Origin: a virus
Lineage: Duplodnaviria; Caudoviricetes
Strand: one strand, 5' to 3'
IMG/VR virus record: IMGVR_UViG_3300034161_000018
Location: 128,001-192,000 of that record
DNA length: 64,000 nucleotides
Made by a program: the position numbers and the translations under genes
The notes under the pieces: generated by a model
Seen by the model: the letters and a program-made list of their open reading frames with translations, nothing else
Database searches by the model: none
What the model was told of the DNA's origin: nothing
Shown here: one piece after another, positions 32,894 to 56,955 of the stretch
Position numbering within the stretch: position 1 is the stretch's first letter
Layout: the number at the start of each line of letters is the position of its first letter

Positions 32894-33006
32894 AACTTCC
32901 AGTAACCCAGCAGGGTAACGCCTTCCATTTCAAGGGCCGTGTGGTAAAATATCCAAGCTGAGAGAAACCTACCCTGACGTTTAACACTTACGGTTTAGTG
33001 GAAGTT
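32894..33006 (+). promoter_or_regulatory. inverted-repeat-flanked sigma70 promoter cassette, copy 1
   Basis: Inverted box 32894-32916; extended -10 TGG-TAAAAT (hexamer 32945-32950), weak -35; direct box ACACTTACGGTTTAGTGGAAGTT 32984-33006. Confidence 0.75.
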
Positions 33007-33039
33007 TCTCAACCCTTTGAAATGTTTGGAGACACCACA

Positions 33040-33474
33040 ATGGAAAAGAGTTTCGCAAACGACGTACCGCTCAAAATCGAAATCGAGGATTCGTCCGAAG
33101 AATACGAACTCCCGAAATACGCGTGCCGGTTTCTTCTGTCGGTAATGAGGCACGCAAACGCTTCGGTCAATATGGACGTGGCCCGCAACGCTTTGGATCG
33201 TGCTGATCGTATTGGTTACGAAGGTTTCCGTTCCGTCGAACCAAACACGCGGCTGTTTCTGCGCGACGACATTGATTTGCCCGGTCTGCTCTATCAAGTC
33301 CGGCGCCACTTCGACAAACTGTTTGAGGAACGCGACGACAAACTTTTTGTCGATGAAAAGAATGCACGCACTGCCTCCGAACTCGACCACTGCCTGATCC
33401 TGATTAAAGTTTTGTCGCGGGCGATTATGTACGGTCGCTCTATCAACATTGTTTACAACAAACCGCATGCTTGA
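33040..33474 (+). CDS. hypothetical protein
   Basis: GGAG SD before ATG 33040. Confidence 0.75.
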   Translation: MEKSFANDVPLKIEIEDSSEEYELPKYACRFLLSVMRHANASVNMDVARNALDRADRIGYEGFRSVEPNTRLFLRDDIDLPGLLYQVRRHFDKLFEERDDKLFVDEKNARTASELDHCLILIKVLSRAIMYGRSINIVYNKPHA

Positions 33475-33484
33475 GGGAACCAAC

Positions 33485-34177
33485 ATGAAAAAGAAATCTA
33501 CAAACGCTCACAGCTTTTCCCTTCTGGTTCACGTTCGGGCCGTTGGGAAAACCAAACGCATTGCCCAGCGCGAAGTGAAAGACCTTGCGAAACGCATTCG
33601 TAATATGGAAGCGGGCGGTTTCAGTCCAGTGCATGGCGACACCGGCTATTCTGTTTCCAGTGTTGAAGCGTGGCCGAAAGCCAATCACGTTTCCGCCGAA
33701 CGAATCGCCCAAGAAGAAATCCGAATCAGCGGCGTTTTCGATTTGAAAAACATGCTGGCGACTGGAGTGTTTGAAGACCAGTCCACCGCTGACGTGGAAA
33801 ATCTTTTCGATTGGCTGGCCGCAAACTCGCCGGGCAACCCGAAAGCATTCCTGCCGGAGTTTCTGCGCGAACAGTTGGAACCGTTCTCCGATCACATCGC
33901 CCAGCATTTCACGGTCGCGGAAATCGAACGGGAAACAATGTCTAAGCGCTACACCAATCGGGAAGTTTACGAAAACGCCGCCAAGGATTTTACGAATCCA
34001 GACTTTGCGGTGTTTGTTCGGATCGACACCCCGATTCGCATGTACCGCCCCGATGGGGAATACGAAGCAAGCTGGGGATACTCGCGTGGCCTGTACGGTT
34101 TCGGCGCCGATTACGAAAGCGCTTTGCGTCAAGCGTACCAAACTGTCATGGCGATGCGTGAACTTCGCCTGATCTGA
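33485..34177 (+). CDS. hypothetical protein
   Basis: GAGGG SD before ATG 33485. Confidence 0.75.
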   Translation: MKKKSTNAHSFSLLVHVRAVGKTKRIAQREVKDLAKRIRNMEAGGFSPVHGDTGYSVSSVEAWPKANHVSAERIAQEEIRISGVFDLKNMLATGVFEDQSTADVENLFDWLAANSPGNPKAFLPEFLREQLEPFSDHIAQHFTVAEIERETMSKRYTNREVYENAAKDFTNPDFAVFVRIDTPIRMYRPDGEYEASWGYSRGLYGFGADYESALRQAYQTVMAMRELRLI

Positions 34178-34218
34178 AAAATGTAAATAGTCTATAGCTA
34201 GTTGACCTCGGGTTTAAG

Positions 34219-34851
34219 ATGAAATCGAAAAGTATCAAAGCAGAAAAGTACGACGCCGAAGGCGCTGTGACTGTAATGGAAATCGCGTTCTACACTCACG
34301 GCAACCTGAACTCGTTGGAAGAAATGCGGGCGGGTAACGCGGCTGTTATCCGCACCGGTCAATATCTGATCGACCACAAACGCATTTCGCGTGGCCTGAA
34401 TGTTTACGTTGAAGCGATTCAAAAGGCGCCGAGTCCAATCGCAATCGTGACCGAAGCAATGGCGCAGTATCATGCGAACCGTGCCGAGGAAATCTTTGCA
34501 GCGATGGAAGCGGAACGCCTTGCGAATCCTCAACCGGAACCGGTCAAGAAGAAAAGGAAAAAGAAGAAAGCGGCGGTCGAAGTCGATCCAAACAAACCGC
34601 TGACCAATGCAGGCGTTTCCTTTATGAAGGAGGCGCTGAAATTGAAACAGGAGAAAATCGAAAAGAAGCGCAAAGAGCGTGTGGCCCGAATCGGTAAAGC
34701 TGGTCATCACGCGGATAGCCAAGCGGCTAAAGAAATTCATGGGAACGATGATTACATTATCATCGACGAAGCGCACATCGAAGTCGTCGGTACTTCCTCT
34801 TTCTCAAATATTCTCAAAACCGTAATGCCTCCAGCGCAGGTTCTCCAATGA
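34219..34851 (+). CDS. hypothetical basic protein
   Basis: 210 aa with KKKRKKKK tract. Confidence 0.7.
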   Translation: MKSKSIKAEKYDAEGAVTVMEIAFYTHGNLNSLEEMRAGNAAVIRTGQYLIDHKRISRGLNVYVEAIQKAPSPIAIVTEAMAQYHANRAEEIFAAMEAERLANPQPEPVKKKRKKKKAAVEVDPNKPLTNAGVSFMKEALKLKQEKIEKKRKERVARIGKAGHHADSQAAKEIHGNDDYIIIDEAHIEVVGTSSFSNILKTVMPPAQVLQ

Positions 34852-35483
34852 ACAAAACTTTTATCGGGCAAGACCCGTTAGCGCCAAACTGGTTTTTCCA
34901 AATCTACCTCGACCCGCAATTCAGTCGGTCGTGGCACACTCACATTGCCACCGTGACGTGCGGTTCGGCAATGGAGCGATGGAGTTTCCAGCTTCACGAA
35001 ATCAAAGTGCCGGAAGGCATGCCCGACCATATGAAAAAGTTTGCCGAACAGGCACGCGCTCTTTTCAGTTCGGAGATTCCCCACGCCGACACGCTGGAGA
35101 AATCCGAAGCGTTCTGCAAGTTGGTTGACGGCGTGGTGAAGAAAAACAAAATGGTGTTGGTGACGAACAACGGGCGCGAGTACACCCACAATGCCCCGTT
35201 CAACTTTTCGTTCCGGCACTTCGGCAATCTGTTTGTGTTCCAGCCTGACCACGAACACGCAAACAATTTCGGCCTGACCTTTTCCGGTCGCTTGCATCTG
35301 GACACGCATCAAGTCGGATACAACGACGATCCGTACATGGCGTTGCCGTCTGTTTTGCAATTGTTTACCCGCACCATCCGCAAGAAAACCGTTTTACATG
35401 CGCAGCTTGCGCAACTGAGTCCGACCCAAAAGCCGAACCACCCACCGGCATTCCAAAACATTTTCCAAATGGAGTACAAATGA
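34848..35483 (+). CDS. hypothetical protein
   Basis: ATGA overlap. Confidence 0.75.
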   Translation: MNKTFIGQDPLAPNWFFQIYLDPQFSRSWHTHIATVTCGSAMERWSFQLHEIKVPEGMPDHMKKFAEQARALFSSEIPHADTLEKSEAFCKLVDGVVKKNKMVLVTNNGREYTHNAPFNFSFRHFGNLFVFQPDHEHANNFGLTFSGRLHLDTHQVGYNDDPYMALPSVLQLFTRTIRKKTVLHAQLAQLSPTQKPNHPPAFQNIFQMEYK

Positions 35484-36043
35484 TGAACGCAGCCCAACAA
35501 AAGCAAGTTGATTTCTCCCGTCGCCCTGAGCCGCTGGACGCACTGAACCCGGCTGGCTGCTACATCACGCCGCTGCGCGAATATCCGCAAACGTCGATGG
35601 ACAAACAAACGTCGCAAATTTTCATGGCAATGTCCCTGAACTTCGCCGACGAAACCAACGTCAACGCCACCGGTCTGCGCGCCGATCTGGAAAAGCAATT
35701 CCCGTACAAAGTTTTGGAAGCGCGCCTGAAAGCGTTTGACCTCGACGTGGCGTTCAACGTGAAAGCTTTTATCGCAATCAGCTTTCCGTCACCGGGCAAA
35801 CTGATTCTGTTCGTGCATTCGATCTACCACTCGCAGCGCCGCAAGGCCGGTCAGCAATACAGCATGACCGATTTCTCTTACGACTTCGCACTGGGTTTCC
35901 CTGACGAACAAGTTATGGAATTCGCGTGGGACGCACAGAAAATCAAACAAGGCGACAACGGTATCGACCTTGAATACGTTTTCAAAGCGACCAAAGAAAA
36001 CCCGTACATCGAGCCAGTCAAGCCGGGCACTGTAGAAGCGTAA
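35480..36043 (+). CDS. hypothetical protein
   Basis: ATGA overlap, GGAG SD. Confidence 0.75.
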   Translation: MMNAAQQKQVDFSRRPEPLDALNPAGCYITPLREYPQTSMDKQTSQIFMAMSLNFADETNVNATGLRADLEKQFPYKVLEARLKAFDLDVAFNVKAFIAISFPSPGKLILFVHSIYHSQRRKAGQQYSMTDFSYDFALGFPDEQVMEFAWDAQKIKQGDNGIDLEYVFKATKENPYIEPVKPGTVEA

Positions 36044-36111
36044 CGCAAAACGGAAACTTTGCGACCCGTTTGCAGAATTTAAGAGAAAGCCATTACAGAA
36101 GGAATTGCGTT

Positions 36112-36594
36112 ATGAGATTCCAGCTAGCGAAAGTTCGTCCTCGCTCCGCATGGTATGAACAGAAGGTGCCGCATCCGTTTCTGCGCGCCGTTTCCTTTGT
36201 TCCAACTTTCTCAGACGGTACACTGCCCGCTGCTTTGCTTTCTTTTATGAATGCGCGGGATCGCAAGGTTTTCGGAACTGTAAAGATTAACCAGATGGAA
36301 GTAGGCTATCTGGTTCGCGAAACTCAGGTGGCTGAACTGACCGAGTTTCTGTTTGAACAGAAAGCGTTGAAAGCACTCGCAAACAAATCAATCATTTGCT
36401 TTGTGATCGAGGAAGGAAAGGAATGTTTCTTTTACAACGTGAAGTCTGGCCGTGACCTTTTGGAAACGACGCTACCGGCTTCACTCAAAGCATTCCGGAT
36501 GAATCGACGGCCAGTGCGACCGACCTTAATGAATCTGCTGGACATTCTTTGCGCCGAGCCGCAAACGAAACTTTATCCAGCCTACCCGGATTGA
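36112..36594 (+). CDS. hypothetical protein
   Basis: AAGGA SD before ATG 36112. Confidence 0.65.
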   Translation: MRFQLAKVRPRSAWYEQKVPHPFLRAVSFVPTFSDGTLPAALLSFMNARDRKVFGTVKINQMEVGYLVRETQVAELTEFLFEQKALKALANKSIICFVIEEGKECFFYNVKSGRDLLETTLPASLKAFRMNRRPVRPTLMNLLDILCAEPQTKLYPAYPD

Positions 36595-36597
36595 TCC

Positions 36598-37455
36598 ATG
36601 ACCCTTTTGACTGTTGACGGAAGCAACGCAATCTATCGCGCCCACCATGCAGTCCCCCCTATGGACTACAAAGGCACGCCGACGAATGCGGTTGTTGGCT
36701 TCATGAGAATTGTAAAGAGTAATTTGAGATTAACGGAAGCGACACACTGCGCCGTTACTTTCGACTTGCCCGGTAAAAACTTTCGGCACGAACTGTTTGC
36801 GGAATACAAGCAAGGCCGCGAAAAGAAACCGGAAGTAGAAGCCGCGTTAAAGATTCAGATTCCAATCATTGCTGACCTGTGCCGCGCTTGCGGACTCCGA
36901 ATGGTCGGCAAAAAGAATATCGAAGGTGACGATCTAATCGGAACCTTGGCTGTACGCTACGCAATGTTGTTCGACCTGCCTTCGCACATTCTGTCGAGCG
37001 ACAAAGACTTTGCTGCGATGATGGCGAAACACAAAAAGATTTGCCTAATTAATCCAGCAAAGGGCGGGATCATTCGACGCAAAGACGTTCCCGAATTGTT
37101 TGGCGTGAAGCCGAGCCAAATGGTTGACTACCTAATGCTTGAAGGCGACGACGTGGACAACATCCCCGGCGTTGACGGCGTTGGGATTGTCACCGCCCGA
37201 AAAATGTTGGCGGCGCACAAGCGCGTTGAAGACGTTCCGATTGAAATGTTTCCGAAGAAGTGGCGCGACCCGGCTGCCTTCAAACAGTTGCAGAAACAAT
37301 TCAAACTGACCCGCAAGCTTGTGACCATTCGCACCGACGTGATCGACCTCGACGTTCGGAAACTGGAACGCCAGCCAACCGACAAAGAATGGCTCAAAGA
37401 AATCTGCAACGAATTCGGTTTGAAACGTTTGTATTCGGAACTGCTCAGCATGTAG
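36598..37455 (+). CDS. 5'-3' exonuclease / flap endonuclease (Pol I 5'-nuclease family)
   Basis: VDGSNAIYRAHHA, FRHELFAEYKQGR, EGDDLIGTLA, SSDKDF, GDDVDNIPGVDGVG. Confidence 0.92.
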   Translation: MTLLTVDGSNAIYRAHHAVPPMDYKGTPTNAVVGFMRIVKSNLRLTEATHCAVTFDLPGKNFRHELFAEYKQGREKKPEVEAALKIQIPIIADLCRACGLRMVGKKNIEGDDLIGTLAVRYAMLFDLPSHILSSDKDFAAMMAKHKKICLINPAKGGIIRRKDVPELFGVKPSQMVDYLMLEGDDVDNIPGVDGVGIVTARKMLAAHKRVEDVPIEMFPKKWRDPAAFKQLQKQFKLTRKLVTIRTDVIDLDVRKLERQPTDKEWLKEICNEFGLKRLYSELLSM

Positions 37456-37471
37456 CTAGGCGCCCGGATCA

Positions 37472-37599
37472 AAACTGTAAACAAACCCTGTAGGGAAACG
37501 GAAAATGTTTCAATCGTTTCCCGAATCGAATTATAGGAAGCTGTAGCAGGCACCGGACAGAAACTGTAAACCCGGTAAGTGTTCACGGCAAACTGTAAA
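37472..37599 (+). promoter_or_regulatory. cluster of three AAACTGTAAA motifs (37472, 37561, 37590)
   Basis: Three exact copies in 128 bp of intergenic DNA. Confidence 0.7.
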
Positions 37600-37602
37600 C
37601 GG

Positions 37603-37715
37603 AACCTAAGCTAAACCGTAAGCGTTACGTTTGACCATTCTCACCCGATTGGTTACAATGAGTCTCCTAGCGCAGCTTATGCCTACGGACTGACACTTAC
37701 GACTTAGTGGAAGTT
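37603..37715 (+). promoter_or_regulatory. inverted-repeat-flanked sigma70 promoter cassette, copy 2
   Basis: Inverted box 37603-37625; TTGACC 37631-36, 17 bp, TACAAT 37654-59; direct box ACACTTACGACTTAGTGGAAGTT 37693-37715. Confidence 0.85.
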
Positions 37716-37744
37716 CCCCGGTTACGGAATCAACCCCGCGACCA

Positions 37745-37754
37745 AAACTGTAAA
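37745..37754 (+). promoter_or_regulatory. AAACTGTAAA motif
   Basis: Exact copy, 67 nt upstream of ATG 37822. Confidence 0.65.
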
Positions 37755-37821
37755 CCCTATTCAGTCCACTACGGACGAACCCCGGCAACTAATGCCATTC
37801 ATGAAAAAAGGAAATACCGCT

Positions 37822-38151
37822 ATGACCGCTAAACTCGACGCCGCAATCGCTACCGCCAAAGAAGCCCGCAAAGTTTCCGGCAATGCCCTGAAAGCTCTGA
37901 ACGCTTCGCAGAAAAAAGTCACCGGCGCCGTTGCTGCTCTGGAAAAAGCTCTGACCGAACAAGACACCGCGCTGACCAACGCCACCACCGCTTCGGCCAA
38001 TGCCAAAACCGCCGCTGCTGCTCTGGCAAAAGCTCAGCCTGCCAAAGCTGCAAAAGCCGCCAAGCCTGCCGCTGTCAAAGTCGCCGCTGCTCCTGCGCCG
38101 GTCGCTGCACCAGCCAAAGCTGGCAAAGCCGCAAAAGCCGCCAAAGTCTAA
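37822..38151 (+). CDS. small Ala/Lys-rich histone-like protein
   Basis: AAGGA SD; helical N-half plus PAKAAKAAK tail; very biased codons. Confidence 0.75.
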   Translation: MTAKLDAAIATAKEARKVSGNALKALNASQKKVTGAVAALEKALTEQDTALTNATTASANAKTAAAALAKAQPAKAAKAAKPAAVKVAAAPAPVAAPAKAGKAAKAAKV

Positions 38152-38170
38152 AAACTTCGGCTAGTTAATC

Positions 38171-38197
38171 AAAAGGGAACCTTCGCGGTTCCCTTTT
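38171..38197 (+). terminator. Rho-independent terminator
   Basis: AAAAGGGAACC-TTCGC-GGTTCCCTTTT. Confidence 0.85.
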
Positions 38198-38218
38198 GTA
38201 CATTCTGGAGTTGAAAAA

Positions 38219-38416
38219 ATGCACGTTCAACACAAATGCAAACATTGCGGAAAGACCGAACGCCATCACGGCGCGTTCAGAAGCGAATGCCTCGTTAACG
38301 GTCGCAAGGTTTCTGACACGCAAACTTTTCAGGCTGACCCGGAAAAGTTCACGGTGTTTGCGCTGGCCCCGCGCCCGCGTACCACTACCGAACTGATGCG
38401 CAACATCGGGCGCTGA
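38219..38416 (+). CDS. small zinc-binding hypothetical protein
   Basis: CKHCGK..H..C; related N-terminal motif in next gene. Confidence 0.65.
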   Translation: MHVQHKCKHCGKTERHHGAFRSECLVNGRKVSDTQTFQADPEKFTVFALAPRPRTTTELMRNIGR

Positions 38417-38418
38417 AA

Positions 38419-39564: not shown

Positions 39565-40429
39565 CTCCAATCACATCGTAGAATTTTCCGTTCAAGCAAC
39601 TCCGGCGCAGATTCTCGCGCAAGCAATCCCGCACGTACAGAAACACGGGATCGAATTGTTTGAACTGGTGCGGATCAGCGATCAACTGAAAGCGCTGACT
39701 CAAAACGGAATCGACGGGCGCGCAATCATCAACGCAATCGCGGCCTATGACATTAGCCTTCACTTGATCGGCAATCGCATGATGCCTTTCGCTCACGGTG
39801 AACAGCCGTCGATTATTGTTCCTGCAAACTTTTCCGATACGACCATGCAGTTCCATTCGCACGTTGAACGCGTGCGCGGCGGTGATCGGTTCTGTGTTTA
39901 TTTCCCAACGCTGGATTCTGAATCCGGCATTTCGGAAATGTTGGTGAAGCAAGGCGTCTGGCTCAAGAACTACAACGCAAACTATTTGTATGCGCTGCTC
40001 CAGAAATTCCGAGCGACCAAACAGATGTTGATTGAGTCCGGGGATTTTTCTGGACGCACCACGCTTTGGATTCCAATGGTGCGAATCGACTTTGTGGGCG
40101 GGCCATTCAAAATGAGTTTGCTGCACAGTCGGGCCAGCCTGTTGCGGGATTTGGATTCGCCTTTCGCTCGCCTTGCCGCGAAAAGTAATTCCAGCCATGA
40201 GTTTGTCGAGCCGGTTAGTTGCACGTCTGAAAAGTTAGCGCTGTGTCGCGAAGCTGTACGACAAGCCGAGCCGTGGTATGGGGCAACGCTGGATTTCTTC
40301 AATCCTGCAAACAATCCGATTGGGGCCGACCAAGCCCGAACAGTTCGCGAACTATTGATTGCGGCTGAAACGGCGGTGCCTCACCAAATCCGTTCATTGC
40401 TTACCCTACCCAACCGAAACCTCCAGTAA
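39557..40429 (+). CDS. hypothetical protein
   Basis: GAGG SD, 290 aa. Confidence 0.75.
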   Translation: MTNSNHIVEFSVQATPAQILAQAIPHVQKHGIELFELVRISDQLKALTQNGIDGRAIINAIAAYDISLHLIGNRMMPFAHGEQPSIIVPANFSDTTMQFHSHVERVRGGDRFCVYFPTLDSESGISEMLVKQGVWLKNYNANYLYALLQKFRATKQMLIESGDFSGRTTLWIPMVRIDFVGGPFKMSLLHSRASLLRDLDSPFARLAAKSNSSHEFVEPVSCTSEKLALCREAVRQAEPWYGATLDFFNPANNPIGADQARTVRELLIAAETAVPHQIRSLLTLPNRNLQ

Positions 40430-40533
40430 AACGGAACCGTAACGGTTGACGGAAAGCCCCCGGTTCTGTACTATTGACTCATTCCTTGGCGTAGCGTGGC
40501 TGACTTCCAGACACTTACGACTTAGTGGATGTT
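40418..40533 (+). promoter_or_regulatory. inverted-repeat-flanked sigma70 promoter cassette, copy 3
   Basis: Inverted box 40418-40440; TTGACG 40446-51, 17 bp, TACTAT 40469-74; direct box ACACTTACGACTTAGTGGATGTT 40511-40533. Confidence 0.85.
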
Positions 40534-40662
40534 CCACCTTAAACGGAACGGCGTTAAGGCGTAAGCGCTGATGCAGTATGTTAGCGCCGAAGCTGATTGA
40601 ATAACCGTGCATGCTTCCATTCCGGAACACACGACACCAACTTTGAAACGGAGATACAAATC

Positions 40663-42351
40663 ATGGCAACTCTGAACCTGACCAAACTGGCCGAAGCTTC
40701 GATCATTCTGGACGGCGAGAAAGTAGCAGTGAAACGCGTTCTGAAAACCAAGGGCGAAATCATCATGGCGAACGGCGAGCGTCTGGCGCTGGAAAATGTT
40801 CGCGCTGTTGGCCGTGGCTTTGTTTACGACGCTCCGAAAAAAGCCGCAACCAAAAAGCCAGCCGCTGCCGCCACAACCAAACCGGCTGCCGCTGCATCGA
40901 AAGCCCCAGCAATGAGCAACGCAAACGGTAACGCGCTGGGCCGTGGCGCCCCGGTTACTGCCGACGATTTGCCAGTGGGCAAAATGATTACCACCAAAGA
41001 CGGCGAAAAGCTGGCCGTTGAAACTGTTCTGCCGAAAAAAGGCATCGTAAAACTGGCTGGCAATGTTCGCGTTGAACTGGCAAACATTGTTCGTCGCGGT
41101 CGCGGTTTCGTTGAACTGGACGTGACCGATGTTGTTCCGTCGTCGAAGCCTGCCGCAAAACCTGCCGCCACTAAACCGGCTGCAACCAAACCAGCGGCAA
41201 GCGGCAAAGCGGCTGCGCCTGCCGGTCATATGGCAATCGAACCGAAACAACTGCGCGGCGCTCGCGTAAAAGTTGGTGGCCGTTACGAAACCGTCGAAAA
41301 AATCTTTGGCTCGAAAGGCCAAGTGATGACCGACAAAGGCACCCGTCTGGAAGTTGCAAACATTCACCAGAAGGGCACCAAATACATTTACGGCGAAGTT
41401 GAAGCCGCACCTGTAAAACCGGCGGCAAAAACTCCAGCGGCAAAACCGGCTGCTGAACCGAAAGCTGGTGGCATTCGTCGTCGCGAAGAACCGGTTGACG
41501 TTTCCAAACCAGCGGGCAAAACCGCTGCCGCGAAAACCGAAACCAAACCGGCCAAGATCAAAAAGATCGAAGCCTTGACCACTGACGTTACCGAAGAAAT
41601 CCGCGAAATCGCAGCCGAGTCTCTGCGCAACGCAATCGCCAAACTTTACGACCTGAAATTCGTAACCAGCGGCGCCGTGTTCAACAACGAAGTGGTAACT
41701 TTTGAACTGACTTTCGCGGTCGGTTCGTACACCCCGAAACAAATCGCCGCTCTGCTGGCTGACCTGAAAGCCGAAGAAGATTCGGAAGACTTCGACGATT
41801 CGGAACTGAGCGGTTCGGACGACGACGATTCGGAAGAAGACGAAGACGATTCGGAAGATGATTCCGAAGAAGAAGACGACTCCGAAGAAGAAGACGATTC
41901 GGAAGACGATGATTCCGAGGAAGACGATTCGGAAGACGACGATTCGGAAGATGATGATTCGGAAGATGATGACTCCGAGGAAGATGATTCCGAAGAAGAC
42001 GACTCCGAAGAAGACGACGAGTTTGAAAACGATTCGGACGACGAAGAAGACGACGAAGAATCGGACGACGACATTGACGCAAAAGTTGCTGCCGGTGTTG
42101 CTGCTCTGGAGAAAAAGTTCGGCAAACATTCCTCGTTCCAAGCGTTTGCTGAAAACTACCTGCTGTCTGAGGAAGTTGAGAAAGCATTCGGCGACGACAT
42201 GACTGTTGGCGTGACCAAACTGAAAACCGAAAAAGGCGTTTACGTTCTGGTCGGCCTGCACGACGATGGCGACGTGATCCTGATTAACGGCAAAACTGCC
42301 AAGCTGAAAAAATCGACCATCGCCGCTGTTGCACGCATGGAAGAAGTTTAA
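40663..42351 (+). CDS. repeat-domain protein with Ala/Lys linkers and ~100-aa acidic tract
   Basis: GGAG SD; three ~50-aa beta-rich repeats plus a similar C-terminal unit; SEEDD repeats. Confidence 0.8.
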   Translation: MATLNLTKLAEASIILDGEKVAVKRVLKTKGEIIMANGERLALENVRAVGRGFVYDAPKKAATKKPAAAATTKPAAAASKAPAMSNANGNALGRGAPVTADDLPVGKMITTKDGEKLAVETVLPKKGIVKLAGNVRVELANIVRRGRGFVELDVTDVVPSSKPAAKPAATKPAATKPAASGKAAAPAGHMAIEPKQLRGARVKVGGRYETVEKIFGSKGQVMTDKGTRLEVANIHQKGTKYIYGEVEAAPVKPAAKTPAAKPAAEPKAGGIRRREEPVDVSKPAGKTAAAKTETKPAKIKKIEALTTDVTEEIREIAAESLRNAIAKLYDLKFVTSGAVFNNEVVTFELTFAVGSYTPKQIAALLADLKAEEDSEDFDDSELSGSDDDDSEEDEDDSEDDSEEEDDSEEEDDSEDDDSEEDDSEDDDSEDDDSEDDDSEEDDSEEDDSEEDDEFENDSDDEEDDEESDDDIDAKVAAGVAALEKKFGKHSSFQAFAENYLLSEEVEKAFGDDMTVGVTKLKTEKGVYVLVGLHDDGDVILINGKTAKLKKSTIAAVARMEEV

Positions 42352-48956: not shown

Positions 48957-48973
48957 CATTTCTGGAGCAAATC

Positions 48974-51105: not shown

Positions 51106-51117
51106 GGGGATTTGACG

Positions 51118-51780
51118 GTGGCAAAGATCAAAGTTGGAAAAGTCGTTACGAAGCGCAAGCCTAGTACCAAACCGAAAAAGAGCGCCGCCGCCAAAGAAGC
51201 CGAGAACCGAACGAAGCGTCTCAAAACAGGCAAGGCTGCGAAAGCCAAACCGGCCAAACCAGATGGGGAACGCCGCGCATACGGGCACACATTCAAACTG
51301 AAAAAGTTTGATAGTCCGGGCATTCGCGCTTTGCCTGATACACCATTCACAAAGCAGGGTATGTCCCTGCCGAAACTTTTGCGCGGAACCCCACGGCTGT
51401 TTATCAACAACGCAATCAACGTTGACGCCCACGGTGCCGTAAAAAGATTGCGCACGAAAACCGGCAAGCCAATGCTGCGCGGCATTATGTGGTCGAGTGA
51501 TCCGCATCGCCCGTTCAAGGTTCGCCGTTATCACGAAACCTACATCATCGGTCTTGACGACAATCAGGACAAAGAAGTTCACACGCACCGGAAAGTTTTG
51601 GTACAGTGCCAGTGCGAGGCGTTCGTTTTCAACTTTGAATACGCAAACGCCACGGTCGGCGCATCCCGTTTGATTTATTCCAACGGCGCCCCGCCAGTGT
51701 ACACCAACCCAGGACTGATGCCCGGATTGTGCAAACACCTTGTCGCTCTCTACAAGATCGCAAAGGTTTACAACCTGTGA
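51118..51780 (+). CDS. SWIM-type zinc finger protein with basic N-tail
   Basis: CQCEAF...CKHL. Confidence 0.7.
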   Translation: MAKIKVGKVVTKRKPSTKPKKSAAAKEAENRTKRLKTGKAAKAKPAKPDGERRAYGHTFKLKKFDSPGIRALPDTPFTKQGMSLPKLLRGTPRLFINNAINVDAHGAVKRLRTKTGKPMLRGIMWSSDPHRPFKVRRYHETYIIGLDDNQDKEVHTHRKVLVQCQCEAFVFNFEYANATVGASRLIYSNGAPPVYTNPGLMPGLCKHLVALYKIAKVYNL

Positions 51781-51896
51781 AATCGCTTTTATATTGGCTG
51801 TTCGGTATTTTATTCAGCGTTGGGTTTATTCTCGGCGCCGGTTTCGCCAACATCTGGCCTTACTTAAAATCATTGCTTCACGCATTGACTGCATAA
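51777..51896 (+). CDS. 39-aa single-pass membrane microprotein (not in ORF track)
   Basis: GTGA overlap; MKSLLYWLFGILFSVGFILGAGFANIWPYLKSLLHALTA; fills the gap exactly. Confidence 0.55.
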   Translation: MKSLLYWLFGILFSVGFILGAGFANIWPYLKSLLHALTA

Positions 51897-51906
51897 GGGG
51901 AACGTA

Positions 51907-52434
51907 ATGTCTCTCGGAAAACTGACGCTTCAAACGGTTCTGGATAATGGTCGCCGCATGGGCGCAGCCATTGAAGGAATCCGAATTCAGAATGTGAAAA
52001 TCGCATGGCCGAAAGACGACGATCCCGAAGCGCTGGCGGCGCACCTTGAATTCCGACGTTTCGCAATGCGCCAACTGGATGACGATCAAGTCAAATCCGG
52101 AATCGCAAACGTCGTCAACTACGGTGGCCCGGCTCACATCGAAGCCGCAAAACAATTGCCGCGTATTGCCTTGACGCAAAACCAAAAGATGGCAGCGCTG
52201 GCGTACAAGTATTACCAGCATGGCGAATGGCGCCCGAAGGCTGGCGACTTCTACACAACCGCACGCGCTGACCTTGAACTTTACCGCGTTGTGAAAATCG
52301 AAAACGAAATCGTCTACACTGAATACTGCCACTTGCCCGGCGTGCTTTCGGAATGGCCTCAAGACGGTTTCACCACGGAAGGCTTTGGCCCGCGCCGCGT
52401 GTACGTGCCGGAACATTGCTTCAACATTATCTAA
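51907..52434 (+). CDS. hypothetical protein
   Basis: AGGGG SD, 175 aa. Confidence 0.75.
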   Translation: MSLGKLTLQTVLDNGRRMGAAIEGIRIQNVKIAWPKDDDPEALAAHLEFRRFAMRQLDDDQVKSGIANVVNYGGPAHIEAAKQLPRIALTQNQKMAALAYKYYQHGEWRPKAGDFYTTARADLELYRVVKIENEIVYTEYCHLPGVLSEWPQDGFTTEGFGPRRVYVPEHCFNII

Positions 52435-52444
52435 AAGGTGCGTT

Positions 52445-52678
52445 ATGTCATTTGGTGAAGTGTGGGAACTCGCAATAGCCGGTAGCCGAATCCGCCGAAA
52501 AGGTTGGAACGGGCCGGGGCAATACGTTTGGCTGGAAAGAGGTTTTGAAGGTTTCCAACCAGTGAACGTAATCCGAAATGCACAAGGGCAACTCCAACCC
52601 GGCTGGCTCCCTTCGATGGGCGACCTGCTGGCGAACGATTGGGAAACTTGTGACCCGACTGTGGGTGGTTTGACTTAA
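52445..52678 (+). CDS. tad2: Tad2/DUF2829-family protein (Thoeris anti-defence sponge-like)
   Basis: MSFGE..LA..G.RIRRKGWNGPGQY ... WLPSMGDLLANDW, the characteristic DUF2829 N- and C-terminal motifs. Confidence 0.8.
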   Translation: MSFGEVWELAIAGSRIRRKGWNGPGQYVWLERGFEGFQPVNVIRNAQGQLQPGWLPSMGDLLANDWETCDPTVGGLT

Positions 52679-52687
52679 CGGTGTGCT

Positions 52688-53701
52688 ATGTCCAGCGACA
52701 AAAACCTAACAGGTGAACAGATTCAACAGATTATGGATATGTTTTTGTATAAAGCATTAGAACCCATAATCATGAACACCAATGCGTTTGACGCGCAGGC
52801 TGAATATTTGCTGATGCTTATCGCTGCAAACGGCAAACGCAAACTCAGTAGTTTGGATCGTGAAGTTGTGGTTGAGTTGCTGGCGGCATACGTGGCACAA
52901 CCCGACCGGCGTAAAAAGTACGAACTCATTCGCGAGGCCCGCATCGAAAGATATTTCCTGCATGGTTTCGCGAAAAAGTTTGTGACGGACAATCTCGAAT
53001 TCGTCCGTAGTTACAACGAATACATTGAGGCGCCGACGGCTTCCGTCCGCAACTACCTCAATAACCGCGCTGCCATCATCGGTGATTGTGGACGCGCAGA
53101 TTTCTTTAATGCGGTTCGCGTTTCCAATGCGTACCTCAAACGCTTCTATGAATATCGGGAAACGATCATTGGTCATTACCTGAAACATAGCAGCAAACAA
53201 GCAAAGGCTTATGTCAGTCAGAGTCATGGCGGTTCGGATTTTCGGGACTTGCGCCAGTCGATTTTGAAAGCGGTGATTACTGCACTGGATAAGTACGATA
53301 GCCGGAAAGGCGCGCTGACCTCCTACATCAACTTCTGGATTTTCAACGCGGCCACTGGCTCGACCGAACATGAATACGGTATCGCCTACACGATTCCTCA
53401 AACACAGAAAAAGAAATTGTTTGAGAAACAGAGTAGCGAAGTAAACTTTAGTGTCAGCCTCGACGCACTGACCAAGAACGATGACGACGAAAACAATCTG
53501 GCGCTACACTCGACGCTAGGTTCTGACAACCAACTCGATGAAGACATTGAGAATATGGAAACCAGCCGAATCGTCCAAGCGCTTGCGAAATGCGTTGACC
53601 GGCGCGGCGTTGCCCGCCTGTGCCTAGACATTGGGGAGTATTTCAGTCCGGGCGAAATGCGAAAGATGCACGATCAAATGCTGAGCGAAGGGCTGGCCTG
53701 A
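52688..53701 (+). CDS. phage RNA polymerase sigma factor (sigma70 regions 2-3, no region 4)
   Basis: DLRQSILKAVITALDKYDSRKGALTSYINFWIFNA (region 2.2-2.4), YTIP, VSLD (region 3.2). Confidence 0.75.
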   Translation: MSSDKNLTGEQIQQIMDMFLYKALEPIIMNTNAFDAQAEYLLMLIAANGKRKLSSLDREVVVELLAAYVAQPDRRKKYELIREARIERYFLHGFAKKFVTDNLEFVRSYNEYIEAPTASVRNYLNNRAAIIGDCGRADFFNAVRVSNAYLKRFYEYRETIIGHYLKHSSKQAKAYVSQSHGGSDFRDLRQSILKAVITALDKYDSRKGALTSYINFWIFNAATGSTEHEYGIAYTIPQTQKKKLFEKQSSEVNFSVSLDALTKNDDDENNLALHSTLGSDNQLDEDIENMETSRIVQALAKCVDRRGVARLCLDIGEYFSPGEMRKMHDQMLSEGLA

Positions 53702-53713
53702 CCGGCCCCGGCA

Positions 53714-53723
53714 AAACTGTAAA
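53714..53723 (+). promoter_or_regulatory. AAACTGTAAA motif upstream of SSB
   Basis: Exact copy, 36 nt upstream of ATG 53760. Confidence 0.7.
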
Positions 53724-53759
53724 CACAACTTGTTATTTTCTCACGAAGGAATGCCAACA

Positions 53760-55178
53760 ATGGCTGCAAAAGGCTTTAAAGGTCTGAAACCAAAAACCGG
53801 GAACAAGGATTCGCTCCGCCTTGAGGAACTGATCGACGTTCACAAGTTCCCCGATGACAAGTGGCTTCAACTCCGCTTTATCGAAAAGGTTGACCCGCTT
53901 GTGGTCAAGCAGCACTGGATCAAAATTCTCGGCGGCAAAGACAAACGCGAAATCACCATTCCGCGTTTCTGCATCGCGTTCGATCCGCTCGATCCGGAAA
54001 CCCCGAAAGAAGGCATCACCTGCCCGTACTGCGAAATCAGTTCCGGCAAAGACGGCGCACAACGCGCTTCGGAATTCTTCCTTATCAACGCAATCGTGCG
54101 TGACATTCAGGAAGAAGAACCGGCGAAGAAAGCCAAGTACACCAAAGACGAAGAAAAGACCGGCTTCAAAGATATGCGGTCGAAATCGTGGACTCCGGTT
54201 CGCGTGATCCGTCTGCCGGGCACACTGGTCGCCCGTATTCAGGAATTGGGTGAAACCAATATCCAGAAAGACAAAAAGACCAAAGAGAAAGCGCAGTACG
54301 ACGCTTCCCATCCGAAGTACGGCTTCGATGTTCAGATCAAGTACAAACCGAAAGCGGCTGGCACCGACAAATATTCTTGCGACAAAGTAGACGGCGGTTG
54401 CACTCCGTTGTCGTCGGAAGAAAAAGAATACCTCGTTTACAAACTCGACGAAGCTCTACTCGACCAAGCTGGCCGCATGAGCCAGAAGGGCGCGAACGAA
54501 GATTTCAAACGCATGGAAATCGCCGGTGACATTCCGGATGACGACGATGACGATGACGACGACGCGCCGAAAGGCAAGAAGTCGAAAAAGAAAGGCCGGT
54601 CGCTCGACGATGACGACGAAGACGACGACATTCCGTCGAACAAGAAATCCAAAAAAGGCAAAAAGCCTTTCGAGGATGACGAAGACGACGAAGACGAAGA
54701 TGATGACGACGAAGACGAAAAACCGAAGAAGTCGTCGAAGTCCTCCAAGTCGAAAGTGAAGGACAAAAAGAAATCCAAGAAGTCGTCGAAAGACGATGAC
54801 GATGAAGATGACGACGAAGACGACGAAGATGAAAAACCGAAAAAGTCGTCCAAGTCCAAGGTGAAAGAAAAAGCCAAGTCGTCCAAAAAGAAATCATCGA
54901 AAGATGACGATGACGACGAGGATGATGAAGACGACGAAGACGAGAAACCGAAAAAGTCTTCCAAGTCCAAGGACAAAGCCAAGTCGAAAGACAAGGTGAA
55001 GCCGAAGAAGAAATCGTCGAAAGACGATGACGACGATGAAGACGAAGACGAAAAGCCGAAGAAGAAGTCGAAAGACTCCGGCAAGAAGTCCAAGTCCAAA
55101 GGCGACGACAAGAAGTCTTCCGGCAAGAAAAAGAAAAAGAAAGCCAGCTCGATCAACGACGATGACGATGACGAGTAA
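53760..55178 (+). CDS. T4 gp32-like single-stranded DNA-binding protein with long K/D/S low-complexity tail
   Basis: LRFI..., CPYC, FLINAIV, YGFDVQI pattern of gp32-type OB fold; lies next to recA. Confidence 0.6.
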   Translation: MAAKGFKGLKPKTGNKDSLRLEELIDVHKFPDDKWLQLRFIEKVDPLVVKQHWIKILGGKDKREITIPRFCIAFDPLDPETPKEGITCPYCEISSGKDGAQRASEFFLINAIVRDIQEEEPAKKAKYTKDEEKTGFKDMRSKSWTPVRVIRLPGTLVARIQELGETNIQKDKKTKEKAQYDASHPKYGFDVQIKYKPKAAGTDKYSCDKVDGGCTPLSSEEKEYLVYKLDEALLDQAGRMSQKGANEDFKRMEIAGDIPDDDDDDDDDAPKGKKSKKKGRSLDDDDEDDDIPSNKKSKKGKKPFEDDEDDEDEDDDDEDEKPKKSSKSSKSKVKDKKKSKKSSKDDDDEDDDEDDEDEKPKKSSKSKVKEKAKSSKKKSSKDDDDDEDDEDDEDEKPKKSSKSKDKAKSKDKVKPKKKSSKDDDDDEDEDEKPKKKSKDSGKKSKSKGDDKKSSGKKKKKKASSINDDDDDE

Positions 55179-55190
55179 CACGTAACCGAA

Positions 55191-55218
55191 GAAGGGGGCC
55201 AAAGCGGCCTCCTTTTTT
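55191..55218 (+). terminator. Rho-independent terminator
   Basis: AAGGGGGCC-AAAGC-GGCCTCCTTTTTT. Confidence 0.8.
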
Positions 55219-55243
55219 CCGCCCATATTCAGGATTCGTGAGA

Positions 55244-56809
55244 ATGGCTAAAGCTACAGCAAAAGAAAAGGCGCCCGCTAAGAAAGCGGCTGCCAAAGAA
55301 AAGGCACCAGCGAAAAAAGCTGCGGCCAAAGAAGCCCCGGCCAAAGAGCCGAAGGTCAGCAAGGCAAAGGCTGCGAAAGAAGTAGTCGCCGAAGTTGAAC
55401 CGAAAAAGTTCTTCAACCCATACGCAAACATCGACGCCGAAATCGACGGCATGGAAAAGAAGTTCGGTCTGACTTCTATGTCCATTGCGGAAAAAGAAGA
55501 TCGGTTCGATACCGGCCTGTTGTGCTTGAACCTGCAAATGGCTGGCGGTCTGTTGGCCGGTGGCTGGTACACGTTCTTCGGCGGTGAACAATCGTGTAAA
55601 ACCACAACCGCAACTGCGGTACTCGGTTCGATTATTCGCCAAGTAAACTTTATCGGTCGTGCGGCATTCTTCGACTATGAAGGTTCGTTCTCTGCGGATT
55701 ACGCGGAAAGCATGTGGAAATATGCTGCGAACGGTCGCCCGCATACCGTGTCCGATGTTTTCGGTGTGAAAAACGAAGAAGGCGAGTGGATTGTTCCGCC
55801 ACGCATTCGTTACTACGCGCCTTCGGTCGGTGAAGATTTCTTCAACTACGTCGCCAAACTCGAAAAGACTTTGCCAGACGTTCTGTTGATCGACGGAAAC
55901 TTCTACTACATCTACGAAAACACGAAAGCGAACCAGAAGCTGACCAAGGGGCAATACGACAAAAAGTATTTCACCAAGTTCAACAAGTTCAAGGTTCCGG
56001 CGCCGCACGGACTGCCGCAAGCAATCGTTTTGACCGACTCCTATCCCGCAATGTTGCCGGGTCGGATGGACGACAAAGACGAAGGCACCGATGGTCTGGC
56101 TTCGCAAGCGCGTATGTTCTCGGAAGGGATCAAGCGCGTCAAAGGTGCAATGAAGCGGAAACGAATTGTGGTTTTGGGTATTAACCAACTCCGCAAAATT
56201 CCGATGGCAATGCACGGCCCGACCGAAGACGAACCTTGCGGCCAAGCGCTCAAGTTTTTCTCGGATGCGCGTTTCCGTATGACCTCCATTTCGATTCCGC
56301 ACGGCACCGTGAAGGGTTCGATGGAAGAAGAAGGTTCGCTTTCCGGCGAAGGCATCGACACTTACCGTTACATCCGCTGCAAAACTTTCAAGAACAAACT
56401 TGGCGGTGTGCAGGGCGCGACTTTCGATATGCGAATTCGCGTTGCGGACTCCAACGGGGAAGCGTCCGGGTTCTGCCGCGTTCACGACTGCTGGCAGTAT
56501 CTGAAAGCCACCGGTCAAATCAGCGGCCAGCGTAACAAAATCAAATTCGGCGAAAAGACTCCGTTCCCCGGAAAGGTTGTGTCTTGGCTGGAACTGAAAG
56601 CGCTGATCGACGGCGACAAAGAGCTTATCAAGAAAGGTTGCGCTAAACTCGCGCCGGGCAAAAAGCCTTTGCGCATTTACGAATGGTGCCGCGACCAAAT
56701 GGCTTCCGGAAAAGGCTACGCGCTGTATCTGGAAACCATCAAGAACAACAACACCAAGAAGAACGCAAAAGCTGCCGCTGGCGTTTCGGATGATTTGGAC
56801 GACGAATAA
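55244..56809 (+). CDS. recA: RecA/UvsX-like recombinase with H1-like N-tail
   Basis: DTG..LN..GG, variant Walker A GGEQSCKTT, TDSYPAM, ASQARMFS, INQLR, CGQALKFFSDARF. Confidence 0.9.
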   Translation: MAKATAKEKAPAKKAAAKEKAPAKKAAAKEAPAKEPKVSKAKAAKEVVAEVEPKKFFNPYANIDAEIDGMEKKFGLTSMSIAEKEDRFDTGLLCLNLQMAGGLLAGGWYTFFGGEQSCKTTTATAVLGSIIRQVNFIGRAAFFDYEGSFSADYAESMWKYAANGRPHTVSDVFGVKNEEGEWIVPPRIRYYAPSVGEDFFNYVAKLEKTLPDVLLIDGNFYYIYENTKANQKLTKGQYDKKYFTKFNKFKVPAPHGLPQAIVLTDSYPAMLPGRMDDKDEGTDGLASQARMFSEGIKRVKGAMKRKRIVVLGINQLRKIPMAMHGPTEDEPCGQALKFFSDARFRMTSISIPHGTVKGSMEEEGSLSGEGIDTYRYIRCKTFKNKLGGVQGATFDMRIRVADSNGEASGFCRVHDCWQYLKATGQISGQRNKIKFGEKTPFPGKVVSWLELKALIDGDKELIKKGCAKLAPGKKPLRIYEWCRDQMASGKGYALYLETIKNNNTKKNAKAAAGVSDDLDDE

Positions 56810-56955
56810 ACTTCCACTAGGCCGGAAGGGTGGGGGCTTCGGCCCCCGCTTTTCGTCTAAGTGCTTGATTTGCCTCGGGTTGCAGGGTGTGGTACAATAG
56901 CTGCGCCCAAGCGTCACCGACTGCAAGGCTTAACACTTACGACTTAGAGGAAGTT
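56809..56955 (+). promoter_or_regulatory. inverted-repeat-flanked sigma70 promoter cassette, copy 4 (upstream box interrupted by terminator)
   Basis: TTGCCT 56870-75, 17 bp, TGG-TACAAT 56893-98; direct box ACACTTACGACTTAGAGGAAGTT 56933-56955; inverted half-boxes 56809-56820 and 56855-56864. Confidence 0.8.
56830..56853 (+). terminator. Rho-independent terminator after recA
   Basis: GGGGGC-TTCG-GCCCCC-GCTTTT. Confidence 0.85.

What the first reader, a model, noticed from the sequence alone, without database searches (positions are those of the whole stretch)
32894..56955. Family of ~113-bp cassettes: sigma70 promoters bracketed by 23-bp inverted repeats at fixed spacing
Seen: four loci share one layout: [inverted 23-mer]-5 bp-[-35]-17 bp-[-10]-33 to 36 bp-[direct 23-mer]. 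The direct boxes are near-identical (ACACTTACGACTTAGTGGAAGTT at 37693; 32984, 40511 and 56933 differ by 1-2 nt). Upstream inverted copies at 32894-32916, 37603-37625 and 40418-40440 match the 32984 variant at 17-18 of 23 positions and end 5 bp before the -35 position. Across seven complete boxes, 11 positions are invariant (AC..T...G..TTA....A.GTT), roughly one DNA face over two turns. The cassettes drive an accessory operon, two nucleoid-like proteins and gyrA. Inference: either paired operators for a phage regulator that clamps or loops host-RNAP early promoters, invertible promoter switches, or mobile promoter modules analogous to T4-type promoter-early stem-loop cassettes. No ORF feature explains this pattern.
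Basis: partly seen in the sequence, partly recalled or inferred. Interest (0 to 1): 0.9.

Follow-up and report, generated by a model that had tools for sequence, protein, structure and literature searches.

The report
Boxed early promoters of a jumbo phage
A 275-kb uncultured phage and its relatives put the same 23-bp recognition sequence, in opposite orientations, on either side of each of their host-type promoters; this most likely marks one co-regulated (probably early) gene set read by a single unknown phage-specific DNA-binding factor.

Summary
The window holds four cassettes. The whole 274,896-bp phage genome holds nine, and nothing else in the genome resembles the box. Each cassette has a looser inverted arm at about -63 to -41, an extended -10 sigma70-type promoter, and a nearly invariant direct arm starting 31-36 nt after the -10. 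The fourth window cassette also has an inverted arm (56809-56831), with a terminator hairpin inserted after it.

I found 26 such pairs in at least five related uncultured phage lineages whose neighbouring proteins are only 34-88% identical. The two arms do not covary, so they look like independent copies of one recognition sequence rather than a selected stem. In a more distant 282-kb relative, all four boxes seen carry the same two changes (T6>C, G9>A). That points to one co-evolving trans-acting reader.

Best reading (about 0.55): paired operators for a phage-specific DNA-binding regulator, a strong site at +39 and an auxiliary one at -52. An invertible switch and a recent mobile element are not supported. 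An RNA-leader role and a PeSL-like role in gene swapping remain open.

The regulator is unidentified and nothing is shown experimentally. Other first readers of this scan noted the same cassettes elsewhere in this genome.

The parts
32853..32880 (+). Terminator hairpin GGGGAGCC-ATTGC-GGTTCCCC plus T-run, ending the upstream operon. The identical 24-mer occurs 3 times in the genome.
32894..32916 (-). Cassette 1, upstream (inverted) arm. It is the most degenerate of the nine in this genome.
32922..32950 (+). Cassette 1 promoter: -35-like TTCCAT and extended -10 TGTGGTAAAAT (32940-32950).
32984..33006 (+). Cassette 1, direct arm ACACTTACGGTTTAGTGGAAGTT, 33 nt after the -10.
33040..33474 (+). First gene after cassette 1: a 144-aa ORFan, absent at this position in relatives L047 and L049.
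37603..37625 (-). Cassette 2, upstream (inverted) arm.
37631..37659 (+). Cassette 2 promoter: TTGACC, 17 bp, TACAAT (10 of 12 to consensus).
37693..37715 (+). Cassette 2, direct arm, identical to the consensus.
37792..38151 (+). First gene after cassette 2: 119-aa Ala/Lys/Pro-rich protein with a histone-H1-like tail.
40418..40440 (-). Cassette 3, upstream (inverted) arm.
40446..40474 (+). Cassette 3 promoter: TTGACG, 17 bp, TACTAT.
40511..40533 (+). Cassette 3, direct arm (1 mismatch), followed by a long conserved 5' leader.
40663..42351 (+). First gene after cassette 3: 562-aa protein with KPAA-type repeats and a long D/E/S acidic tract.
56809..56831 (-). Cassette 4, upstream (inverted) arm. 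It overlaps the last base of the stop codon of the RecA-like gene.
56832..56855 (+). Terminator hairpin GGGGGC-TTCG-GCCCCC plus T-run, lying between the upstream arm and the promoter (the 'long' class of cassette).
56870..56898 (+). Cassette 4 promoter: TTGCCT, 17 bp, TACAAT, with extended -10 TGTGG.
56933..56955 (+). Cassette 4, direct arm. Its GAGGAA also serves as the Shine-Dalgarno sequence of the ATG at 56959.
56959..58825 (+). 138-aa ORF (phrog_9342), then a topoisomerase II A-subunit homologue (57353-58825).

Best explanation
Each cassette is a host-RNA-polymerase (sigma70-type, extended -10) promoter flanked by two copies, in opposite orientation, of one asymmetric 23-26-bp recognition sequence. 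One copy is nearly invariant and lies in the initially transcribed region, at about +28 to +50. The other is looser and lies at about -63 to -41.

I propose that both are double-stranded DNA operators for a single sequence-specific factor, most likely encoded by the phage. This factor would co-regulate the whole set of nine promoters. The downstream site would be the primary operator, acting as a roadblock or clamp just ahead of the polymerase. The upstream site would be an auxiliary operator that raises occupancy by bridging about 90 bp of promoter DNA. The likely outcome is timed shut-off or dampening of these (presumably early) promoters.

Shown: the elements exist, they are exclusive to these promoters, their spacing is fixed, they are deeply conserved, the arms do not covary, and both arms changed together in a distant lineage.

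Inferred: protein binding, the direction of regulation (repression rather than activation), bridging or looping, and early timing.
For: (1) There are exactly 18 boxes in 275 kb, all in 9 promoter-bracketing pairs. A matrix trained on another phage's boxes finds nothing else above noise.

(2) Both arms share the same conserved positions (A1, C4-G9, T13-A14, G17-A19, G21-T23) and the same variable positions (2-3, 10-12, 15-16, 20). That is the pattern of base contacts by one reader.

(3) There is no compensatory evolution. 78.0% of cells pair against 77.3% in shuffles (128 of 500 shuffles as high). The covariation score is 0.063 against 0.059. Of 26 deviations in direct arms across 24 cassettes, only 8 pair with their partner, and 161 of 2000 permutations were as high.

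(4) The upstream arm lies upstream of the predicted start site and, in several cassettes, downstream of a terminator. It is therefore largely untranscribed, which argues for recognition as DNA.

(5) Conservation is deep. There are 26 pairs in at least 5 lineages whose adjacent proteins are 34-88% identical, while direct arms differ by 0-3 of 23 bases.

(6) A concerted switch occurred. In the 282-kb relative (exonuclease 50% identical), the three direct arms and the one upstream arm seen all read ACTCACAnCnTAnnGGAAGTT. That is C6 and A9, where all 24 tabulated direct arms of the main lineage have T6 and G9.

(7) The box is absent from 185,579 bacterial and archaeal species genomes and from the nearest cultured phages.

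(8) The genome has a second, separate promoter-like motif (AAACTGTAAAC, 24 copies against 1.8 expected, strand-matched to genes) and a sigma-like ORF. This fits a temporal programme in which the boxed sigma70-type set is one class.
Against: - No binding protein is identified. The one candidate I looked at (a 307-aa double helix-turn-helix protein 4.3 kb downstream of cassette 13593) differs in its putative recognition helix in a lineage that keeps the same box.
- The direct arm is much better conserved than the upstream arm, and its distance from the -10 is the most constant feature. Two tandem promoters in the distant relative have no recognisable upstream arm. The transcribed arm could therefore carry an additional or alternative RNA-level role.
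- Centre-to-centre spacings (88-93 bp, 123-126 bp, 82 bp) do not keep one helical phase, which does not favour a rigid loop.
- Promoter activity, start sites, timing and host are all inferred from sequence.
Confidence: 0.55

Rival explanations
1. RNA-level element. The direct arm would be a conserved 5'-leader motif: a binding site for an RNA-binding, antitermination or translation factor, or a stabiliser placed behind a small 5' hairpin. In read-through transcripts the upstream arm would pair with it to form a roughly 23-bp imperfect duplex that RNase III cuts, separating operons.
For: - The direct arm is transcribed, sits at a fixed 31-36 nt from the -10 in every cassette including the distant lineage, and is far better conserved than the upstream arm.
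- A small hairpin usually precedes it in the leader.
- In four cassettes its GAGGA doubles as the Shine-Dalgarno sequence.
- The arms could form 16-21 pairs of 23.
- The joint change of both arms in the distant lineage preserves complementarity.
Against: - There is no covariation within cassettes, and unpaired positions are systematic (position 3 unpaired in 14 of 15).
- A-C mismatches outnumber G-U (about 20 against 10), so neither strand's RNA is favoured.
- The upstream arm mostly lies behind a terminator.
- On sense RNA the upstream arm is the complement of the motif. Its own conservation pattern, which mirrors that of the direct arm, is explained only by recognition of duplex DNA.
- The box has no conserved internal hairpin.
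- There is no Rfam match.
Confidence: 0.2
2. PeSL-like recombination module. The conserved terminator-promoter-box unit would mainly serve as a patch of homology, or a target for a recombination protein, that lets phages swap the accessory genes lying just downstream.
For: - Homology between relatives stops within a few bases of the end of the direct arm, or a gene is gained or lost there, at cassettes 13593, 49643, 54945 and 32984. That is 4 of 8 orthologous comparisons.
- The first genes are mostly ORFans.
- Terminator hairpins precede many cassettes, and one 24-nt hairpin is repeated three times.
- This matches the description of PeSLs (PMC2839356, PMC4122927).
Against: - Simple homology-driven exchange does not need inverted arms, a fixed distance to the -10, or position-specific conservation with free positions in between.
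- 23 bp is short for homologous exchange.
- Early regions are plastic in most large phages without such boxes.
- This role could coexist with regulation rather than replace it.
Confidence: 0.1
3. Relic miniature transposable elements (MITE or Correia-like) with 23-bp terminal inverted repeats that carried a promoter and were domesticated.
For: The size (about 113 bp), imperfect terminal inverted repeats and internal promoter resemble Correia-type elements (comparison from my own knowledge; layout).
Against: - There are no target-site duplications.
- The interiors are not homologous except at promoter positions.
- All copies are co-oriented with the downstream genes.
- All orthologous sites are occupied in relatives down to about 70% nucleotide identity.
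- The left and right arms have different consensus sequences.
Confidence: 0.05
4. Invertible promoter switches flipped by a site-specific recombinase acting on the inverted arms.
For: Inverted repeats flank a promoter, as in fimS or Bacteroides switches (own knowledge). There is a weak tyrosine-recombinase-like hit in the genome (19 bits, below the cut-off).
Against: - All 27 pairs in every lineage are in the ON orientation.
- The arms keep distinct consensus sequences (A3/A10 against C-or-G3/G10), which crossover within the arms would erase.
- The 59-70 bp between the arms is very short for inversion.
- No strand-change joint appears in contigs of four runs (contigs can miss rare forms).
- There is no serine recombinase.
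Confidence: 0.02

Closest known systems
Auxiliary-operator promoter bracketing in bacteria (gal OE at -60.5 / OI at +53.5 with GalR; lac O1/O3). From my own knowledge.
   Same: Two copies of one operator sequence lie on either side of a promoter, one upstream and one inside the transcribed region, roughly 90-115 bp apart. One site is strong and the other weaker.
   Different: Those operators are each palindromic and bound by dimers, and they serve one operon. Here each site is asymmetric, the pair is inverted, and the same geometry is repeated at all nine promoters of a class in a phage genome. The protein is unknown and looping is not shown.
Multiple asymmetric operators of phage repressors (P1/P7 C1; mycobacteriophage L5/L1 gp71, whose operators also stop elongation)
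   Same: An asymmetric operator is repeated at many places in a phage genome and read by one protein. In L5 the sites also lie inside transcribed regions and block elongation (PMC1934351).
   Different: Those are 13-17-bp sites of immunity repressors of temperate phages, not arranged as inverted pairs at fixed distances around each promoter. This genome shows no clear integrase or lysogeny module, and the box is 23-26 bp.
T4-type PeSL (promoter-early stem-loop) cassettes
   Same: Composite terminator plus sigma70-type early promoter units in front of ORFans, with gene insertions or replacements beginning at the unit (PMC2839356, PMC4122927).
   Different: PeSLs are defined by a G/C stem-loop and an AT-rich upstream element. 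They have no conserved 23-bp boxes bracketing the promoter and no conserved element at +28 to +50. Mini-circles or recombination at these boxes are not shown here.
Invertible promoters (fimS, Bacteroides and Clostridioides switches) and Correia-type MITEs. From my own knowledge.
   Same: Short inverted repeats flank a promoter-bearing segment of 100-300 bp.
   Different: Only one orientation is ever seen, the arms are systematically unequal, there are no target duplications, and the positions are orthologous and fixed.

Membership tests
Paired-operator (bracketed) promoter regulon | Two or more copies of one recognition sequence flank the promoter. | tested here: met
   9 of 9 promoters in the genome have one arm on each side. 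I found 26 pairs in relatives.
Paired-operator (bracketed) promoter regulon | The sites are constrained independently (by a reader), not by pairing with each other. | tested here: met
   Covariation is no higher than in shuffles. Only 8 of 26 deviations are paired. The power of this test is limited by the near-invariance of the direct arm.
Paired-operator (bracketed) promoter regulon | A cognate DNA-binding protein exists. | tested here: inconclusive
   One XRE-type double helix-turn-helix protein (L050:1396-2319) lies in a cassette-led operon, but its recognition helix varies in a lineage with the same box. Binding is not testable with these tools.
Paired-operator (bracketed) promoter regulon | The helical phasing of the two sites is kept (needed for a rigid loop). 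| tested here: inconclusive
   Centre-to-centre distances are 88-93 bp (8.4-8.9 turns), 123-126 bp and 82 bp. No single phase is kept.
T4-type PeSL | A sigma70-like early promoter with an AT-rich upstream element. | tested here: not met
   The promoter is present (extended -10 in all cassettes), but the upstream region is the G+C-containing inverted arm, not an AT-rich tract.
T4-type PeSL | An adjacent G/C stem-loop acting as a terminator. | tested here: inconclusive
   Terminator-like hairpins stand next to about 5 of 9 cassettes. They are absent at 37603 and 40418.
T4-type PeSL | Recombination between units produces indels or mini-circles. | tested here: inconclusive
   Gene gain or loss starts at the direct arm in 4 of 8 comparisons. 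No junction molecules were seen (contigs only).
Invertible promoter switch | Both orientations occur in populations or relatives. | tested here: not met
   Only one orientation is seen in 27 pairs, and there are no strand-change joints in four runs' contigs. Raw reads were not available.
Invertible promoter switch | A dedicated site-specific recombinase is present. | tested here: not met
   PF00239 gives no match. PF00589 gives only 19 bits, below the cut-off of 27.
MITE / Correia-like element | Target-site duplication and presence/absence polymorphism. | tested here: not met
   There are no direct repeats at the outer ends. All orthologous sites are occupied.
RNase III-type processing stem | Base pairing is maintained by compensatory change, and both arms are co-transcribed. 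| tested here: not met
   There is no covariation. The upstream arm mostly lies behind a terminator.
RNA-guided TnpB-like repressor (TldR) target | A guide RNA copy of the target exists elsewhere in the genome. | tested here: not met
   There is no match of 10 nt or more to the box outside the cassettes beyond chance, and none near the TnpB-like locus noted by another reader.

The most novel reading that the evidence does not exclude
A phage-encoded factor uses asymmetric sites in mirror orientation at -52 and +39 to enclose the host polymerase's whole footprint at every promoter of one temporal class (a 'promoter clamp'). The specificity of factor and sites co-evolves across a clade of about 270-kb phages. 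The transcribed arm may serve at the same time as the fixed border at which new early genes are captured.
Probability: 0.3. Interest if true: 0.75.

Novelty: new variant of a known kind. Interest (0 to 1): 0.55.

Why it matters
Temporal control in jumbo phages that rely on the host polymerase is poorly known, and this clade has no cultured member.

The cassettes give a complete, sharply defined regulon: nine promoters, 18 sites and nothing else. The geometry is exact and conserved across phages that have diverged to 34-50% protein identity, and there is a natural specificity variant.

That makes the problem testable without the phage. Cassettes and candidate ORFs can be synthesised, and the switch T6>C/G9>A offers a built-in specificity control.

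The cassettes also flag the genes behind them, mostly ORFans, as the probable host-takeover set. They may also mark where new genes enter these genomes.

Tried and rejected
**Searches that found nothing or could not run**
- Megablast of 6 kb against cultured phages gave no match.
- No RNA holder was listed among public runs, so start sites and processing could not be examined.
- Contigs of four DNA runs hold relatives about 93% identical. They show no inversion joints. The only joint reported was a contig from the other genome arm matching two boxes.
- Scans of JGI metagenomes and IMG/VR found only one relative (G001/G002/G003). Further relatives came only through protein look-ups.
- The box is absent from Phage NCTB and Erwinia phage pEa_SNUABM_7 and from bacterial genomes.
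- Rfam gave nothing in the window.
- Whole-record searches of the ENA relatives were not possible, so their cassette totals are unknown.

**Ideas rejected**
- T7-like promoter idea (the box shares TACGACT with the T7 promoter): no single-subunit polymerase was found (though that control was silent), and the resemblance is short.
- ECF-sigma promoter reading of GGAAC...CGT: the spacing and conservation do not fit.
- TldR guide idea: no guide-like copy of the box exists.
- HU/IHF and MotA families: no match (the MotA control was silent).
- Generic sigma70 scan: total hits do not exceed shuffles, although two cassette promoters were among the listed hits, one of them the top hit at 10 of 12. A promoter matrix found no comparable unboxed promoter, but it was partly circular.
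- Candidate regulator (307-aa double helix-turn-helix protein): a positional lead only. The co-variation test with the distant lineage could not be completed because look-ups were exhausted, and one lineage argues against it.


Full report
**What is there**

The window is bases 128,001-192,000 of a 274,896-bp viral record with direct terminal repeats and 50.6% G+C. The 23-mer ACACTTACGACTTAGTGGAAGTT occurs four times in the window with at most 2 mismatches, against zero in 100 shuffles. It occurs nine times in the genome with at most 3 mismatches. Four copies are on + at 160.9-184.9 kb and five on - at 13.6-55 kb, always co-oriented with the genes that follow.

Every copy has an inverted partner upstream with consensus AACnTCCAGTAGGCCGTAAGCGT. 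The partner lies 66-70 nt away in eight cassettes and 101 nt away in the ninth (window 56809-56831), where a terminator hairpin sits between the arm and the promoter. Its other coordinates and its 11 invariant positions are correct.

Between the arms, all cassettes carry an extended -10 (TGTGnTAcAAT) with a TTGnCn-like -35 element 17 bp upstream. In the short class the upstream arm ends 34-35 bp before the end of the -10. In every cassette the direct arm begins 31-36 nt after it. If the -10 is taken as -12 to -7, the arms lie at about -63 to -41 and +28 to +50, just outside the usual polymerase footprint.

**Is it more than chance, and is it exclusive?**

I trained a weight matrix only on the boxes of a relative and scanned the 275-kb genome. 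Its 18 best hits are the 9 direct and 9 inverted arms (15.5-36.5 bits). The next hit, at 13.5 bits, is at the level of shuffled genomes. So there are no solitary boxes, and boxes occur only as promoter-bracketing pairs.

**Relatives**

IMG/VR and JGI hold one relative (G001, G002, G003) that is about 70-80% identical in nucleotide sequence in conserved genes. It has orthologous cassettes at all six comparable places.

Protein look-ups reached further lineages on ENA and Logan contigs:
- The RecA-to-topoisomerase cassette, in phages whose downstream protein is 51-85% identical (L041, L043, L045).
- All three other window cassettes, in a 272-kb genome (L047, exonuclease 69% identical) and in L049 (88% identical).
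- The orthologue of cassette 13593, in L051 and L055.

In these 26 pairs the direct arm differs from the consensus at 0-3 of 23 positions, although flanking intergenic DNA and even the neighbouring genes have diverged strongly. Contigs of four metagenome runs from different studies hold further relatives about 93% identical. In the part of the difference list that was shown, which covers cassette 1, the direct arm has no difference.

The box is absent from the nearest cultured phages, whose topoisomerase is about 43% identical. It is also absent from 185,579 bacterial and archaeal species genomes.

**Stem or site?**

The arms can pair at 16-21 of 23 positions, but pairing is not what is conserved.
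- On the 15-cassette alignment, 78.0% of cells pair against 77.3% when arms are shuffled among cassettes (128 of 500 shuffles as high). The covariation score is 0.063 against 0.059.
- In 24 cassettes, 26 deviations from the consensus occur in direct arms. Only 8 of them pair with the partner base, which is near the random expectation.
- Position 3 is mismatched in 14 of 15 cassettes. A-C mismatches outnumber G-U, so neither strand's RNA is favoured.

Instead, both arms share the same constant positions (1, 4-9, 13-14, 17-19, 21-23) and the same free positions (2-3, 10-12, 15-16, 20). That is the signature of two independent copies of a site read by one factor.

The upstream arm lies upstream of the predicted start and often behind a terminator. 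Its conservation therefore argues for recognition as duplex DNA. No Rfam family matches, and the box has no conserved internal hairpin.

**A natural specificity switch**

A 282-kb relative (loci L048, L053, L054; exonuclease 50% identical) has no standard boxes. It does have:
- two tandem promoters, each followed 33 or 31 nt after the -10 by ACTCACAcCATAAgGAAAGTT or ACTCACATCATAACGGAAGTT;
- one full cassette with both arms of this variant type at L054:13752-13856.

All four boxes carry C6 and A9, where the main lineage has T6 and G9 in all 24 tabulated direct arms and in 21 and 23 of the 24 upstream arms. Every site in a genome changing to the same new sequence is hard to explain without a common trans-acting reader that changed with them.

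The same data show that the distance from the -10 to the direct arm is the most constant feature. The upstream arm can move (26, 34-35 or 67-68 bp from the end of the -10) or be missing.

**What it most likely does**

The best-supported model is a regulon of host-type promoters, each with a primary operator at about +39 and an auxiliary inverted operator at about -52, for one phage-specific DNA-binding protein.

I infer repression (shut-off of an early class) from three points:
- The strong site sits in a downstream, roadblock-like position.
- The genes behind the cassettes are mostly ORFans and DNA-metabolism genes.
- The genome has a second promoter-like motif, AAACTGTAAAC. It has 24 copies against 1.8 expected, is strand-matched to genes and is conserved in relatives. 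There is also a sigma-like ORF.

None of these inferences is shown. Bridging of the two sites is plausible by analogy with gal and lac auxiliary operators (my own knowledge). However, the spacings do not keep one helical phase.

Phage repressors that read many asymmetric operators, some of which stop elongation, are known for P1, P7, L5 and L1 (PMC1934351).

No guide-like copy of the box exists anywhere in the genome, which rejects an RNA-guided TnpB-like repressor.

One XRE-type protein with two helix-turn-helix motifs (L050:1396-2319) lies 4.3 kb downstream of cassette 13593, and in the same place in relatives. Its family is confined to these phages. However, its putative recognition helix differs in a lineage that keeps the standard box. 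It is a lead, not a finding.

**Rivals**

- An RNA role for the direct arm cannot be excluded and may coexist with the operator role.
- A PeSL-like role in gene exchange is suggested by gene gain or loss beginning right after the direct arm in 4 of 8 comparisons and by repeated terminator hairpins. It does not explain the inverted arms or the exact spacing.
- Inversion and recent transposition are not supported (orientation and occupancy data above).

**Verdict**

This is a real, sharply defined and deeply conserved regulatory architecture in an uncultured clade of jumbo phages. It works like operator-bracketed promoters and is a new variant of that kind. The reader protein and the effect on transcription remain to be shown.

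Noticed in passing
window 27882, 29791, 37474, 37563, 37592, 37747, 44527, 46681, 47506, 49577, 53716, 59884 (+) and 27960 (-): ACTGTAAAC, usually as AAACTGTAAAC, occurs 24 times in the genome (1.8 expected), on the strand of the local genes. Four copies surround cassette 2. It is conserved at the same places in L047 and L049 and appears as TACTGTAAAT in the 282-kb relative. It is probably a phage-specific (middle or late) promoter element.
   Followed up: partly
window 52688-53701 (+): A 337-aa ORF with a weak Sigma70 region 2 match (PF04542, 21-23 bits, below the cut-off). It is conserved in relatives next to Tad2-like and Tad3 genes and may be the factor for the AAACTGTAAAC motif.
   Followed up: partly
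window 32853-32876; genome 49789 (-) and 115009 (-): An identical 24-nt terminator hairpin, GGGGAGCCATTGCGGTTCCCCTTT, occurs three times. Two copies stand in front of boxed cassettes and one in front of an AAACTGTAAAC motif.
   Followed up: partly
downstream of window 33006; genome 13593, 49643, 54945 (loci L006, L007, L009 against G001): Between relatives, genes are inserted, lost or replaced starting within a few bases of the end of the direct arm. One example is the 144-aa gene at window 33040-33474, which is missing in L047 and L049.
   Followed up: partly
window 40534-40662: The long 5' leader after cassette 3 (containing CGGCGTTAAGGCGTAAGCG) is almost unchanged in L047 and L049, although the neighbouring exonuclease is only 69-88% identical. 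Its function is unknown.
   Followed up: no
window 40663-42351 and 37792-38151: A 562-aa protein with three repeated modules joined by KPAA-type linkers and an acidic D/E/S tract of about 100 residues, and a 119-aa protein with a histone-H1-like Ala/Lys/Pro tail. Neither has a Pfam or PHROG family.
   Followed up: partly
L050:1396-2319 (-), genome about 8736-9659: A 307-aa protein with a sigma-region-4-like and an XRE-type helix-turn-helix motif, plus a conserved TGRVSCAEPN motif reminiscent of family A polymerases. The family has only six representative clusters, all apparently from this phage clade.
   Followed up: partly
window 37574-37583: An extra inverted half-box, GGTAAGTGTT, lies 20 nt upstream of the upstream arm of cassette 2. 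It is kept in L049 but not in L047.
   Followed up: no
L048:12343-12648: In the 282-kb relative, two tandem sigma70-type promoters each carry a variant direct box but no recognisable upstream arm, in front of the orthologue of the acidic 562-aa protein.
   Followed up: partly
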